64,000 bases of DNA from Escherichia coli. GTDB lineage: Bacteria; Pseudomonadota; Gammaproteobacteria; Enterobacterales; Enterobacteriaceae. The first letter of the stretch is position 1. Each line of letters opens with the position of its first letter. The stretch lies in NCBI RefSeq assembly GCF_044324875.1, contig NZ_CP172185.1; one strand, given 5' to 3'. Position numbers: made by a program. This document shows, piece by piece, positions 46,301 to 49,300 of this stretch.

Positions 46301-49300
46301 TGGGATACAGCGTATCAGGCGATGCACTCGGTTCGTTCTGGACGTCCTCGTAGAGTTCGTCAAGGTCGCTGTCTCCTGCCAGTTTTTCAAACAACGCCAC
46401 TGGCAGAATGACGGATACCCTGTTACCCGCACCGTCAGTAATAAACTGAATCTGACTCATTTGCCCCTCCTGCTAAACATCGGTTTATTTTTTAATTTGC
46501 TGCCGGTGATAAAAAACGGCGGGTCGCCCCGCCTTAGTATGTTGTCGAGGTTCTCCGCTGAATACGGAGGATCCTGATAACCACTATCTGCCCTCCCTCA
46601 ATCGTGAACCTGACACGGTAATGATTTACCCTGAGTCTGTACTCCCCGCCCGAGTCAGTGAGCTTTTTAATATCCAGATTCTGGAACTTCGGATAGCCAT
46701 AAAGCGCGTTAACTTTCTCGCGTAAGGATTTCTGATCCCTCGCTGGCAAAACCCGTAAATCTTTGATTGCCCGAGGGGTCCACATGATTTCAGTCGTCAT
46801 AAACACACCGGAAGCAAATTATTAAAGAGCCGTGCCCGCTGGCACACCTTAAATATAGGTTTTAACCCCTATATTGTCAAACAAAATCCCTATATCATGA
46901 AGTAAAAAAGCACCTCCCGCGACCTCCCTTTCCGGTGCACGAAAGTGCACAAATTTGCACAATTTTTTTGAACGACTTTTTGCCCTTCCGGCCCGTGTGG
47001 CGTCTGGATCCGTCGGGGATCCGTGCGTGCACGAAAAAAGGCCTTTTTCTGCGCGCAGGTGACGGGGGAACAGCCCGCGTTTCAGGGGGTAAATAGCATT
47101 CCCTGAACGATGTTGCAGTGACACAACAGAATGGCTGTATTTCTCACGCTGAGCGTGAAAAAGACGTAAGGGCTTTTGATTTGATGGGGTGAAAGATAAG
47201 GCCGTCAAAATCGCACTGAGGCAGCGAGAATATGTCGTCAGAGTTGCGGGGTTGCGTAAGCATCCGCCCGGCGATGATGGCTACAGGGCTGGAGATGTTG
47301 TGAAATTATCTGAAGGAATAACCAGCTTGCAGGAGAACCCGGGCAAAGTCAGAATAGCGGCAGGCATCAACTCAAAAGAGGATAATGTCATGAGCCACTT
47401 TAATGATTTATGCCAGATCAATCGTGAAGCTGAAGAAAAACGCGCTGAGGCAGCTCAAATTTTGCGGGATGAAGCGGCAAGGCTGATTGATTTCTATGAA
47501 GAATGGCTGGGGCTTCCATCCATGTACTGGGAAGACGATGATGGCGACCTGCACCGCTACGTGGAGACAGGCTTGCCATGTAAGACAGCGGCGGATTTTA
47601 GTCCTCTTTCAGTCCACAATATCGCATCTGCACCAGACAATATTTTCCGCATGGCCGTACGAACCTGGGTAAAGTCATCTGACAGCAGCTACCCGGTAAG
47701 CGTGGTTATTGCACTTGAATTATATTCAGTAGATGCGGAACGGGTGTCTCTGAGAGTCCGGGTGGAAGACGATATTTCTGTTCGCGTATTTATCAATAAA
47801 CCCAGCGAAGAAGCCTGGGGCGATGTTGTTATGCACATGAAAAAGCACATCGCTAATCACCTGAAAAAGCGAGCGCCATCAGCACTTCGTTAAGCAGAGC
47901 TGGAGAGTCGGGGCATAAATTTTTTATGCCCCGGCGAAGCAGCAGACAAGCGAAGCGCGTCAGGATATGGGCCGGGTGTCTAACAGTGCGTAAGGGTTAA
48001 AACGGATCACCTCTTCGCCCAGCCAGTCGTTGACGTGTTTCATTGCTTCCATGACGGGCATCAGTTCGTTAATGGCAAACACACGGGCTGCCTTCTCCAC
48101 ATCCCCGAATGACCCCTTCTCACCCGGCATGGCCCCCATCAGCTGAGGTGGCACGCGGTGCACAGCCAGCACGTCATCACGCGATGCGGCCTTGACGTTC
48201 ATGAACTCATCCTTTGCGGTGATTTGCTGAAACGGCAAAATCTGTACGCCATCCTTACCACCTCCCGCCGCGTGGATGAGCAGATTTTTAAACGCCCCGC
48301 CACCACGCGCGCTTTGCAGCGTTTCCCGCAGTTTTTCCATGCTTTCACGGTCAACCTGCGCCGCACCGATGTAGACAATACAGCCCGCGTGTGAGCCGTT
48401 ATCGTAGTAGAGCTTGCGGAAGATATCGGCGGAATGTGACAGGCTGGCAGACAGCAGGCCGCCCAGGTAATCCGGCATCCCGTAAATCTCCTGGTTGATA
48501 TCAGGATTCATCAGGTGGCATATCGTCCCCTCACGAAAGCGGTACTCTTCCTGTCCTTCCTGTATATACCACCATGATTTCATATCGCTGCCACGTCGCA
48601 TGTATTTCGCCAGCGCCCGGCGCAGGGCCAGCGGTTCGCCAAGCATGTTGCGCCGCAGCTCAAGACAGGCATTACCGAACACAAACCAGTCCATCGCCAC
48701 CCCGGCGAACTCCTGGCGGGACAGCAGAGGATGTGGAATATAGCAGCCCAGCAGCACATTACGTTTGAAGCTGAGCGCCGACTGGTGCCAGGACGTCTGG
48801 CGGGCAGCCCGTGCCAGTCCGTACCAGTCAACGGGCGTTTCAAACCACCGCCCGTTGTCGGCGCAGTACATGCTGTCCAGCAGGTCGGCCCCTGACAGCC
48901 GGTAAGGTCCTTCAAACGTGAAGGCACTCAGTGTCGGGTCGCTTCGCAGGGAATCCGCAAGGCTGCCCTGCGCTGCGCGGGCGTTCGTACGTCGTTGTTT
49001 ATTTTTTCTGCTCATCAGAACTCCGTAACACTGAAGGGGGCGGCATCATGTTCACCGCCGACAGGTTCGTTGATAACGGCCAGCATGGTGGCCCATGCAA
49101 GATCGCCATGGCTTACGCCTCTTGCGCGATCTGTTTCGTAGGTGATAAATCCGGCCTGCGTTTTTGTTTTGCGTACCGCGTTAAAGGCGCTCACCAGTTC
49201 GCGCTCGCTGCGGTCGTACTCCCACCGCCCGGCGCGCATGAGCTGCAGCATCTTCAGAACCAGCGTGCGCTTTGATGACAGGGTGAAGGTGTAGGGAATG

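What the first reader, a model, noticed from the sequence alone, without database searches (positions are those of the whole stretch)
46807..47893. Orphan 168-aa gene preceded by a 580-bp structured leader with GTGCAC iterons
The 168-aa acidic protein has no recognisable domain and its good ribosome-binding site lies 580 bp from the nearest upstream gene. The gap contains three tandem about 10-bp repeats (GTGCACGAAA / GTGCACAAAT / TTGCACAATT at 46938-46965), another GTGCACGAAAAAAGG at 47026, a direct GGATCCG repeat, and a hairpin TTCAGGG-N13-CCCTGAA at 47081-47107. This could be a regulated defence gene with a long leader or small RNA, or packaging/cos-associated binding sites.
Basis: seen in the sequence. 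Interest (0 to 1): 0.55.

Follow-up and report, generated by a model that had tools for sequence, protein, structure and literature searches.

The report
Prophage packaging site plus small cargo gene
The "leader with iterons" is the DNA-packaging (cos) site of a P2-family prophage, and the 167-aa gene beside it is a separate cargo gene of unknown function with its own short promoter, so the arrangement is ordinary for this phage family.

Summary
The repeats are real, but the 580-bp gap is not a leader. It has four parts.

- **46807-46905:** promoter/operator of the divergent RelE-type toxin-antitoxin operon.
- **46935-47095:** the cos packaging region of a P88-like (Xuanwuvirus, P2-family) prophage.
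- **47096-47313:** P88-type backbone with no supported gene or RNA.
- **47314-47897:** a 584-bp insertion carrying its own promoter, ribosome-binding site and the gene.

The cos call rests on anatomy shared with P2, 186 and P4, whose cohesive ends are annotated in their records. All have three tandem TGCA(C/T) boxes, a fourth box exactly 72 bp after the third, and a 19-mer about 30 nt further on. The window's 19-mer matches P2's at 13 of 19 positions. The block occurs in 1139 of 5426 E. coli genomes. A satellite-like island also carries it at 81% identity.

The gene occurs in only 26 of those genomes. It belongs to phrog_5091 and is under purifying selection (dN/dS about 0.1-0.15). It has no Pfam, PADLOC or NCBIfam match and no informative fold match. 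The cos-to-portal slot is a published foreign-gene hotspot. No RNA structure or Rfam family supports a leader or small RNA.

The parts
46807..46905 (-). Promoter/operator region of the divergent RelE-like toxin / HTH antitoxin operon (genes 46534-46806 and 46086-46460, minus strand). It has a -35 TTGACA and a -10 TATATT between 46880 and 46852, plus CCTATAT/ATATAGG repeats.
   Evidence: The promoter scan gives 11 of 12 matches on the minus strand. The operator role is inferred.
46935..46964 (.). Three tandem 10-bp boxes with core TGCAC at 46936, 46946 and 46956. They are the distal part of the cos region and the proposed binding sites of the small terminase subunit.
   Evidence: The same three-box cluster occurs in P2, 186 and P4 as TGCAT and in all relatives examined. 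Conservation in E. coli genomes begins exactly at 46936.
46965..47026 (.). Spacer that keeps the third and fourth boxes exactly 72 bp apart start to start. It contains a T-run and the GGATCCGT direct repeat.
   Evidence: The 72-bp spacing is invariant in every cos region examined, while the spacer sequence is not. The GGATCCG repeat is absent from the Salmonella, Enterobacter and satellite versions.
47027..47036 (.). Fourth box GTGCACGAAA with core TGCAC at 47028-47032. It corresponds to the TGCAT with which P2-P4 sequence similarity around cos begins.
   Evidence: In P2, 186 and P4 the annotated cohesive end starts 29 nt after this box.
47058..47076 (.). Predicted 19-nt cohesive-end sequence (cosN equivalent), GGTGACGGGGGAACAGCCC.
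   Evidence: It matches P2 GGCGAGGCGGGGAAAGCAC at 13 of 19 positions, at the equivalent distance (30 nt) from box 4. It is identical in P88, Enterobacter phiT5282H and the Salmonella prophage. Intermediates GGCGAGGCGGGGGAGCAAG/T occur in L019 and Erwinia L031. The exact cut positions are inferred, not measured.
46935..47095 (.). The whole cos (packaging) region, about 160 bp.
   Evidence: This is the block shared at 81% identity with a satellite-like island in E. coli ETEC1747. Similarity ends after GTTTCAGGGGGTAAAT. The block is present in 1139 of 5426 E. coli genomes.
47096..47313 (.). P88-type backbone between cos and the portal-side hairpin. It includes the right arm of the 47081-47107 inverted repeat and a 43-codon ORF that begins at GTG 47189. 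No function is assigned.
   Evidence: About 90% conserved in P88-like phages. The small ORF is broken by frameshifts or stops in 2 of 6 relatives. The RNA fold z-score is -0.09. Other lineages carry a different sequence here.
47314..47897 (+). A 584-bp insertion (moron) that replaces the 10 bp CTGATACAGG of phage P88.
   Evidence: Alignment with P88 and P88_4B11. The full region is present in 26 of 5426 E. coli genomes, against about 1140 with the flanks only.
47327..47355 (+). Candidate promoter of the moron: -35 TTGCAG (47327-47332), a 17-nt spacer, and -10 CAGAAT (47350-47355).
   Evidence: CTTGC and CA.AAT are the only invariant non-coding columns in 8 otherwise unalignable upstream regions. 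It matches the sigma-70 consensus at only 7 of 12 positions and falls below the scan threshold. Promoter function is inferred.
47390..47893 (+). Gene for a 167-aa cytoplasmic protein of family phrog_5091, function unknown. Its ribosome-binding site AAGAGGA is at 47376-47382.
   Evidence: phrog_5091 match at E 3e-52. All full-length homologs are 164-169 aa and most begin MSHF. dN/dS is 0.11-0.15 in the two least-saturated pairs. The AlphaFold model has pLDDT 85.8.
47910..47932 (.). Conserved hairpin GGGGCATAAATTTTTTATGCCCC between the moron and the portal gene. It sits where P2 has terminator tQ and 186 has tW, and is a putative bidirectional terminator.
   Evidence: The sequence is and is conserved in P88-like phages. 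P2 tQ and 186 tW are annotated at the equivalent place. It lacks a U-tail and was not called by the terminator scan. Its role is inferred.

Best explanation
The window holds a P2-family prophage of the P88-like genus Xuanwuvirus. The interval 46935-47095 is its cos site, where terminase recognises and cuts replicated phage DNA for packaging.

**Proposed mechanism (inferred).**
- The four TGCAC boxes are recognition sites for one DNA-binding protein, most likely the small terminase subunit gpM (window 52928-53710).
- Three tandem boxes sit about seven helical turns (72 bp) from a fourth box.
- The fourth box abuts the cleavage site, so bending or looping would bring a terminase assembly onto the 19-mer at 47058-47076. 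There the large subunit would make staggered nicks.

**The gene.** The 167-aa gene is unrelated to these sites. It is a self-contained moron with a promoter at 47327-47355, a ribosome-binding site, the coding sequence and a shared hairpin. It sits in the known foreign-gene slot between cos and the portal-gene terminator. Its product is a small acidic helix-sheet-helix protein with no catalytic signature. It most likely acts by binding another protein, as a phage-exclusion or counter-defence factor. That last step is a guess.

**Shown versus inferred.** Shown are conservation, architecture, sharing with a satellite-like island, presence/absence polymorphism and purifying selection. Inferred are the exact cut site, the identity of the box-binding protein, promoter activity and the protein's function.

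**What the confidence covers.** The figure given is for the two structural claims: that this is the cos region, and that the gene is an independent moron. I put small-terminase binding to the boxes at about 0.6 and the guessed protein function at about 0.3.
For: **The phage.** Replication protein gpA, portal, large terminase, scaffold, capsid and small terminase flank the region in P2 order. The best DNA matches are Xuanwuvirus phages.

**Architecture shared with annotated cos sites.**
- P2, 186 and P4 each have three TGCAT boxes, a fourth box 72 bp after the third, and the annotated cohesive end 29 nt after that.
- The window has TGCAC at 46936, 46946 and 46956, then at 47028 (+72). GGTGACGGGGGAACAGCCC starts 30 nt later and matches P2's cohesive end at 13 of 19 positions.
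- The same layout occurs in P88, Enterobacter phiT5282H, Salmonella, Edwardsiella, Erwinia, Serratia-type and metagenomic relatives.

**Boxes change together.** The core is TGCAT in P2, 186 and P4. It is TGCAC at all four boxes in the window and its closest relatives. It is TGAAC in boxes 2-4 of the Edwardsiella prophage. The small terminase of P2 and 186 is 80% identical over the N-terminal 100 aa compared, against 37-40% for the window's protein.

**Satellite sharing.** A ~12-kb island in E. coli ETEC1747 has an integrase, an Icd-like protein, a primase and an Ogr/Delta-like protein, but no annotated portal or terminase. It carries the block from box 1 to GGGGGTAAAT at 81% identity and then diverges.

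**Boundary.** Conservation across 1139 E. coli genomes starts exactly at box 1, where the variable gpA-side hotspot ends. The published P2 hotspot is described as directly adjacent to cos (PMC9122126).

**The moron.**
- It is absent from P88-like phages and from about 1115 of the ~1140 E. coli genomes that carry the flanks.
- CTTGC-N17-CA.AAT is invariant in 8 loci.
- dN/dS is 0.11-0.15 in the two least-saturated pairs.
- The slot between cos and gpQ is reported as a hotspot for foreign genes: phiCTX ctx and retrons Ec67/Ec86 (PMC5694545).
Against: - No virion-end data exist for this phage. The one linear P88-type record (LR595891) starts at the equivalent of window 46981, between box 3 and the spacer, not at the predicted 19-mer. 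I treat that start as arbitrary but cannot prove it.
- The 19-mer shares only 13 of 19 positions with P2.
- I could not find or read a paper that describes the three distal boxes as functional. The published P2/P4 core is 55 bp, as cited in PMC5694545. By my own count that covers only box 4 to GCGCGC, so the distal boxes may be dispensable or serve another purpose. In P2 they lie just upstream of the old-tin transcript starts.
- The candidate promoter matches the sigma-70 consensus at only 7 of 12 positions.
- Nothing bears directly on the protein's function.
Confidence: 0.85

Rival explanations
1. The gap is a long structured 5' leader or encodes a small RNA that regulates the 167-aa gene.
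For: The gap is long. It contains palindromes and a 7-bp hairpin. The whole 487-nt stretch folds slightly better than shuffles, at z = -1.59.
Against: - The block is conserved in about 1115 E. coli genomes and 18 phage records that lack the gene.
- An invariant promoter-like motif lies 35-64 nt from the ATG.
- The fold z-score is -0.09 for 47096-47392.
- Rfam has no match above threshold.
- The hairpin's right arm is not conserved.
- Serratia-type homologs have cos downstream of the gene, and one has only 31 nt to the preceding ORF.
Confidence: 0.04
2. The TGCAC boxes are iterons of a replication origin, or operators for a transcription factor that controls the neighbouring hotspot genes, rather than packaging signals.
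For: Tandem 10-bp repeats resemble iterons. In P2 the first TGCAT box lies about 26 nt upstream of the mapped old-tin transcript starts. In the window the boxes lie about 55 nt from the toxin-antitoxin promoter.
Against: - The boxes keep a fixed 72-bp register with the fourth box and the cohesive end in every element, whatever cargo lies beside them.
- P4 and the ETEC1747 island carry the boxes although the DNA on both sides of the block differs from that of their helper-type phages.
- From my own knowledge, not tested here, the P2 origin lies inside gene A.
Confidence: 0.08
3. The true gene is the longer 234-aa ORF (GTG 47189), or the 197-aa version NCBI annotates (GTG 47300), so part of the "leader" is coding.
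For: The ORF is open from 47189. RefSeq annotates a 197-aa product, WP_001354611.1. A 234-aa form exists in JGI gene calls.
Against: - Nearly all full-length homologs are 164-169 aa and most begin MSHF.
- The PHROG profile aligns from residue 67 of the long form.
- The extension is a fusion made by the insertion junction with a 43-codon backbone ORF. That ORF is broken in 2 of 6 relatives.
- A good ribosome-binding site precedes ATG 47390.
Confidence: 0.05

Closest known systems
cos sites of phages P2 and 186 and satellite P4 (19-nt cohesive ends; 55-bp core of Ziermann and Calendar 1990, as cited in PMC5694545 and PMC9122126)
   Same: - The position is the same: between the gpA-side variable region and the portal gene.
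- The layout is the same: three tandem boxes, a fourth box exactly 72 bp on, then a short palindromic stretch and a G-rich 19-mer beginning GG(C/T)GA.
- Satellite-type elements share the block.
   Different: - The box core is TGCAC, not TGCAT.
- The 19-mer differs from P2's at 6 of 19 positions.
- The distance from cos to the portal stop is about 880 bp here and about 330 bp in P88 (by alignment to the window), against about 170 bp in P2.
- The cut sites are not determined experimentally for this genus.
Phage lambda cosB (R1-R3 sites bound by the small terminase gpNu1, with an IHF bend between them)
   Same: Both have several short repeats of one recognition sequence beside the nicking site, with a fixed spacer that would allow bending. 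This comparison rests on my own knowledge of lambda.
   Different: There is no sequence similarity, the terminase proteins are unrelated, and no binding or bending has been shown for the P2 family here.
Morons in the cos-to-portal slot of P2-like phages (phiCTX ctx; retrons Ec67/Ec86 in 186-like prophages; phiRSY1 ORF1-4)
   Same: The insertion point is the same, between cos and the portal-gene terminator. The gene has presence/absence polymorphism and a self-contained promoter-gene unit (PMC5694545).
   Different: The cargo is a 167-aa protein with no similarity to those genes and no known function.
P2 lysogenic-conversion exclusion genes tin, old and fun(Z)
   Same: They are also non-essential cos-proximal or hotspot genes of P2-type prophages, and they encode single proteins.
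   Different: There is no sequence or profile similarity. No exclusion phenotype has been tested.

Membership tests
P2-family cos site | Lies between the replication gene A side and the portal gene Q of a P2-like phage | tested here: met
   gpA is at 42260-44749 and the portal gene at 47960-49015. P2 and 186 have the same layout.
P2-family cos site | 19-nt G-rich cohesive-end sequence related to GGCGAGGCGGGGAAAGCAC | tested here: met
   GGTGACGGGGGAACAGCCC at 47058-47076 matches at 13 of 19 positions in the same register. Intermediates occur in L019 and L031.
P2-family cos site | Conserved flanking core that begins with a TGCA(T/C) box about 29 nt before the cohesive end | tested here: met
   The box at 47028 lies 30 nt before the 19-mer. 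The distance is 29 nt in P2, 186 and P4.
P2-family cos site | Shared with satellites that hijack the helper's terminase | tested here: met
   The ETEC1747 island shares 46936-~47095 at 81% identity and nothing beyond it. That the island is a satellite is inferred from its annotation.
P2-family cos site | Cut by terminase to give cohesive ends in virion DNA | not testable with these tools
   No virion-end data are available. The start of linear record LR595891 does not coincide with the predicted site.
Moron (independent cargo gene in a phage backbone) | Present in some and absent from other otherwise collinear phages, with clean junctions | tested here: met
   A 584-bp insertion replaces 10 bp of P88. 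26 E. coli genomes carry the full region, against about 1140 with the flanks only.
Moron (independent cargo gene in a phage backbone) | Own promoter and terminator | tested here: inconclusive
   An invariant CTTGC-N17-CA.AAT motif precedes the gene and a conserved hairpin follows it. Neither passes the consensus scans. No transcript data are available.
Known anti-phage defence systems (PADLOC-DB 2.0) | Profile match to a catalogued defence protein | tested here: not met
   No PADLOC families match either the 167-aa or the 234-aa form.
Cis-regulatory RNA or small RNA | Rfam family match, or folding stability beyond shuffled controls | tested here: not met
   The only Rfam hit scores 22 bits against a threshold of 45 and lies elsewhere, at the 47901-47954 hairpin. 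Fold z-scores are -0.09 and -1.59.
Replication-origin iterons | Repeats linked to an initiator gene or origin, independent of packaging signals | tested here: not met
   The repeats keep a fixed register with the cohesive end in every element. P4 and the ETEC1747 island carry them although their flanking DNA differs.

The most novel reading that the evidence does not exclude
Two readings remain open.

**(1) The protein.** The 167-aa protein belongs to a wider structural family of ~155-175-aa uncharacterised proteins in Gammaproteobacteria. It could be a new single-protein phage-exclusion or counter-defence factor. In the ten prophage contexts examined the gene was always cos-proximal, on either side of cos.

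**(2) The boxes.** The 3+1 box arrangement with an invariant 72-bp spacer could be a cosB-like specificity code. TGCAT, TGCAC and TGAAC classes would then define which P2-family helpers can package which satellites. I could not find this described in the searchable literature.

The probability below is for reading (1).
Probability: 0.3. Interest if true: 0.5.

Novelty: new member of a known kind. Interest (0 to 1): 0.27.

Why it matters
**For annotation.** The result removes a false lead: there is no long leader, small RNA or iteron origin here. It places the cos site of a very common E. coli prophage type, present in about one genome in five. It also corrects the start of WP_001354611.1 from 197 aa to 167 aa.

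**For biology.**
- Box sequence classes may predict helper-satellite packaging compatibility in the P2 family.
- phrog_5091 is a compact, well-folded protein under purifying selection. It sits in a slot known to collect toxins, retrons and exclusion genes, so it is a reasonable candidate for a phage-challenge screen.

Tried and rejected
**Protein searches that found nothing informative.**
- PADLOC, NCBIfam and Pfam searches of the protein and of its family alignment gave no match.
- tblastn against 50,697 GenBank phage records gave no match.
- A profile search against PDB sequences gave only weak hits.
- Foldseek against viral structures gave nothing.
- The 1449-aa hit P0015 is a repeat-driven artefact.

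**Rejected ideas about cos.**
- I first aligned the window's TGCGCGC with the TGCGCGC that follows P2's cohesive end, which put the cut site at about 47031-47049. I dropped this once the 72-bp and 29-nt register was found.
- I considered the start of linear record LR595891 (= window 46981) as a genome end. I rejected it because it falls inside the conserved spacer, away from the site homologous to the annotated P2, 186 and P4 ends.
- Pairwise local alignment of the cos regions was uninformative.

**Other checks.**
- I tested the 43-codon ORF at 47189 as a possible gene. It is broken in 2 of 6 relatives.
- Literature searches for P88 or Xuanwuvirus cos data found nothing usable. Ziermann and Calendar 1990 is not held in the library.
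- The protein accession is not in the supplements of Rousset et al. 2022.
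Full report
**Observation.**
- Three tandem 10-bp repeats lie at 46935-46964, with core TGCAC at 46936, 46946 and 46956.
- A fourth identical GTGCACGAAA lies at 47027-47036.
- The direct GGATCCGT repeat lies at 47006 and 47017.
- The inverted repeat TTCAGGG-N13-CCCTGAA lies at 47081-47107.
- The box motif KTGCACRA occurs 5 times in the 64-kb window against 14.2 expected. Four of the five copies fall in these 100 bp.
- The ORF from ATG 47390 to the stop at 47893 encodes 167 aa with pI 5.4. AAGAGGA lies 7 nt upstream of the ATG.

**Context.** The window is a P2-family prophage.
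- The replication protein gpA is at 42260-44749.
- The portal gene is at 47960-49015 on the minus strand.
- The large terminase gene is at 49015-50766 on the minus strand.
- Scaffold, capsid and small terminase genes follow on the plus strand.
- The best DNA matches are P88-like phages of the genus Xuanwuvirus.
- Between gpA and the finding lie cargo genes: a DUF6516 protein with an HTH partner, and a RelE-like toxin with an HTH antitoxin on the minus strand.

**The gap has four parts.**
1. *46807-46905.* This holds a strong minus-strand promoter-like site: TTGACA, 17 nt, TATATT, matching 11 of 12 positions between 46880 and 46852. It is flanked by CCTATAT/ATATAGG repeats. I read it as the promoter/operator of the divergent toxin-antitoxin operon.
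2. *46936 to about 47320.* This stretch is about 90% identical in 18 phage records and about 1140 of 5426 complete E. coli genomes. In those it lies directly beside the portal gene, without the 167-aa gene. Conservation starts exactly at the first box.
3. *47314-47897.* This is a 584-bp insertion relative to P88, where only CTGATACAGG stands. Only 26 E. coli genomes carry it.
4. *47910-47932.* The conserved hairpin here sits where P2 and 186 have their portal-operon terminators tQ and tW.

**Why 46935-47095 is the cos site.**
- The P2 and 186 records annotate their 19-nt cohesive ends.
- I laid the circular junctions of P2, 186 and P4 beside the window. All four share one anatomy: three tandem TGCA(T/C) boxes, a fourth box exactly 72 bp after the third, and then the cohesive end.
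- The cohesive end starts 29 nt after the fourth box in P2, 186 and P4.
- In the window, GGTGACGGGGGAACAGCCC starts 30 nt after the fourth box. It matches P2's GGCGAGGCGGGGAAAGCAC at 13 of 19 positions.
- The same register holds in P88, Enterobacter phage phiT5282H (a different genus), and Salmonella, Edwardsiella, Erwinia and Serratia-type prophages. It also holds in two metagenomic contigs.
- Two of these (L019 and Erwinia L031) carry GGCGAGGCGGGGGAGCAAG/T. This bridges the P2 and P88 versions of the 19-mer.
- By my own count, the P2-P4 similarity from the fourth TGCAT through GCGCGC is 55 bp. That equals the size of the published "55-bp core" (PMC5694545). I could not read the original paper.

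**Evidence that one protein reads all four boxes.**
- The box core changes in concert. It is TGCAT in P2, 186 and P4.
- It is TGCAC at all four boxes in the window and its closest relatives.
- It is TGAAC in boxes 2, 3 and 4 of the Edwardsiella prophage.
- The 72-bp spacer keeps its length but not its sequence. The GGATCCG repeat is missing in several lineages. This points to a phasing or looping role.
- The small terminase subunit follows the same split. P2 and 186 are 80% identical over the N-terminal 100 aa compared. The window's protein is 37% identical to P2's over the full length and 40% identical to 186's over those 100 aa.
- Binding by the small terminase is an inference from these patterns and from the lambda cosB precedent, which I cite from my own knowledge.

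**Satellite evidence.**
- A ~12-kb island next to hpt in E. coli ETEC1747 encodes two integrases, an Icd-like protein, a toprim primase, an Ogr/Delta-like protein and a P2-family capsid protein.
- It has no annotated portal or terminase.
- It carries the block from the first box to GTTTCAGGGGGTAAAT at 81% identity and then diverges.
- This sharing delimits a functional cos of about 160 bp, 46935-47095.

**The rest of the "leader".**
- The stretch 47096-47313 is P88-type backbone.
- Its 43-codon ORF (GTG 47189) is broken in 2 of 6 relatives.
- Other lineages carry unrelated sequence here.
- It folds no better than shuffled sequence, at z = -0.09.
- The whole stretch 46906-47392 gives z = -1.59.
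- Rfam has no match above threshold.
- The right arm of the 47081-47107 hairpin is not conserved.
- The 234-aa ORF arises because the insertion junction removed the small ORF's stop codon.

**The gene.**
- It matches phrog_5091 over its full length.
- The family is small: 9 clusters at 90% identity, rising to 23 with a profile search, and 7 representatives at 50% identity among 1.8 billion proteins.
- Full-length members are nearly all 164-169 aa and most begin MSHF, which fixes the start at 47390.
- dN/dS is 0.11-0.15 in the two least-saturated pairs.
- In eight contexts the gene lies between cos and the portal gene: the window itself, three further E. coli loci (including one where ISEc12 disrupts it), Salmonella, two Edwardsiella loci and Erwinia.
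- In the two Serratia-type loci it lies just on the other side of cos.
- It is therefore cos-proximal cargo, not a gene tied to a leader.
- Upstream of eight homologs, the only invariant non-coding columns are CTTGC and CA.AAT, 17 nt apart. In the window these are 47327-47332 and 47350-47355. This is a weak but phylogenetically footprinted promoter, which implies a 5' UTR of about 30 nt.
- The slot between cos and gpQ is a reported hotspot for foreign genes (PMC5694545). The whole gpA-gpQ interval is the known P2 defence hotspot (PMC9122126 and a 2026 bioRxiv preprint).

**What the protein might do.**
- The AlphaFold model is confident, with pLDDT 85.8 and pTM 0.81. It has a 38-residue N-terminal helix, an antiparallel sheet and a C-terminal helix.
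- BFVD finds nothing.
- AFDB50 shows a wider set of ~155-175-aa uncharacterised proteins in Enterobacterales, Pseudomonas and Halomonas, with TM scores of about 0.7-0.9 at 15-30% identity.
- There is no PADLOC, NCBIfam or Pfam match.
- My best guess is a protein-binding modulator, either phage exclusion or counter-defence. This is a guess from position and fold class only.

**Verdict.** The first alternative, a long leader or small RNA, is not. The region is an ordinary though previously unannotated cos site, plus a moron of unknown function in a known hotspot. Two things are mildly new. One is the invariant 3+1 box layout with co-varying box sequence across P2, 186, P4, P88-type phages and a satellite-like island. 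The other is phrog_5091 as a candidate for functional screening.

Noticed in passing
L028 (E. coli ETEC1747, NZ_CP122722 4280917-4299067), cos block at locus 9001-9151: A ~12-kb integrative island next to hpt carries two integrases, an Icd-like protein, a toprim primase, an Ogr/Delta-like protein, a P2-family major capsid gene and MazEF. It also carries a P88-type cos block. It looks like a P4-type satellite that encodes its own capsid protein and is matched to P88-type rather than P2-type helpers.
   Followed up: partly
window 45293-46050 (+) and 46086-46806 (-): Two two-gene modules fill the gpA-side hotspot. One is a DUF6516 protein with an HVO_A0114/ArsR-like HTH protein. The other is a RelE-like toxin with an HTH antitoxin. 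None matches a PADLOC system beyond generic HTH hits.
   Followed up: partly
L001 (LR595891, phage P88_4B11) about 95-100, equivalent to window 47073-47077: This linear record lacks 5 nt (CCCGC) at the right edge of the predicted cohesive-end 19-mer. It also starts at the equivalent of window 46981. This could be an assembly artefact at cos or a real variant.
   Followed up: no
L006 (E. coli NRZ14408, NZ_LT599825) locus 4247-7544: An IS21-family element (ISEc12) splits the 167-aa gene homolog in this strain. The gene is therefore dispensable for prophage maintenance.
   Followed up: no
L017 5648-6175; L020 6066-6443; L032 5071-5643: Other lineages carry additional uncharacterised small genes (175 aa, 125 aa, 123 aa plus 56 aa) in the same cos-to-portal slot. 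This shows the slot accumulates varied cargo.
   Followed up: no
L007 2453-2485 (P2 record 33452-33484): In P2 the three distal TGCAT boxes lie about 26-60 nt upstream of the mapped old-tin mRNA starts (33424 and 33426, minus strand). Packaging-site occupancy and cargo-gene transcription could therefore interact.
   Followed up: no
window 47300-47893: RefSeq annotates the gene as 197 aa from GTG 47300 (WP_001354611.1), and JGI gene calls give 234 aa. Family alignment shows the start is ATG 47390.
   Followed up: yes
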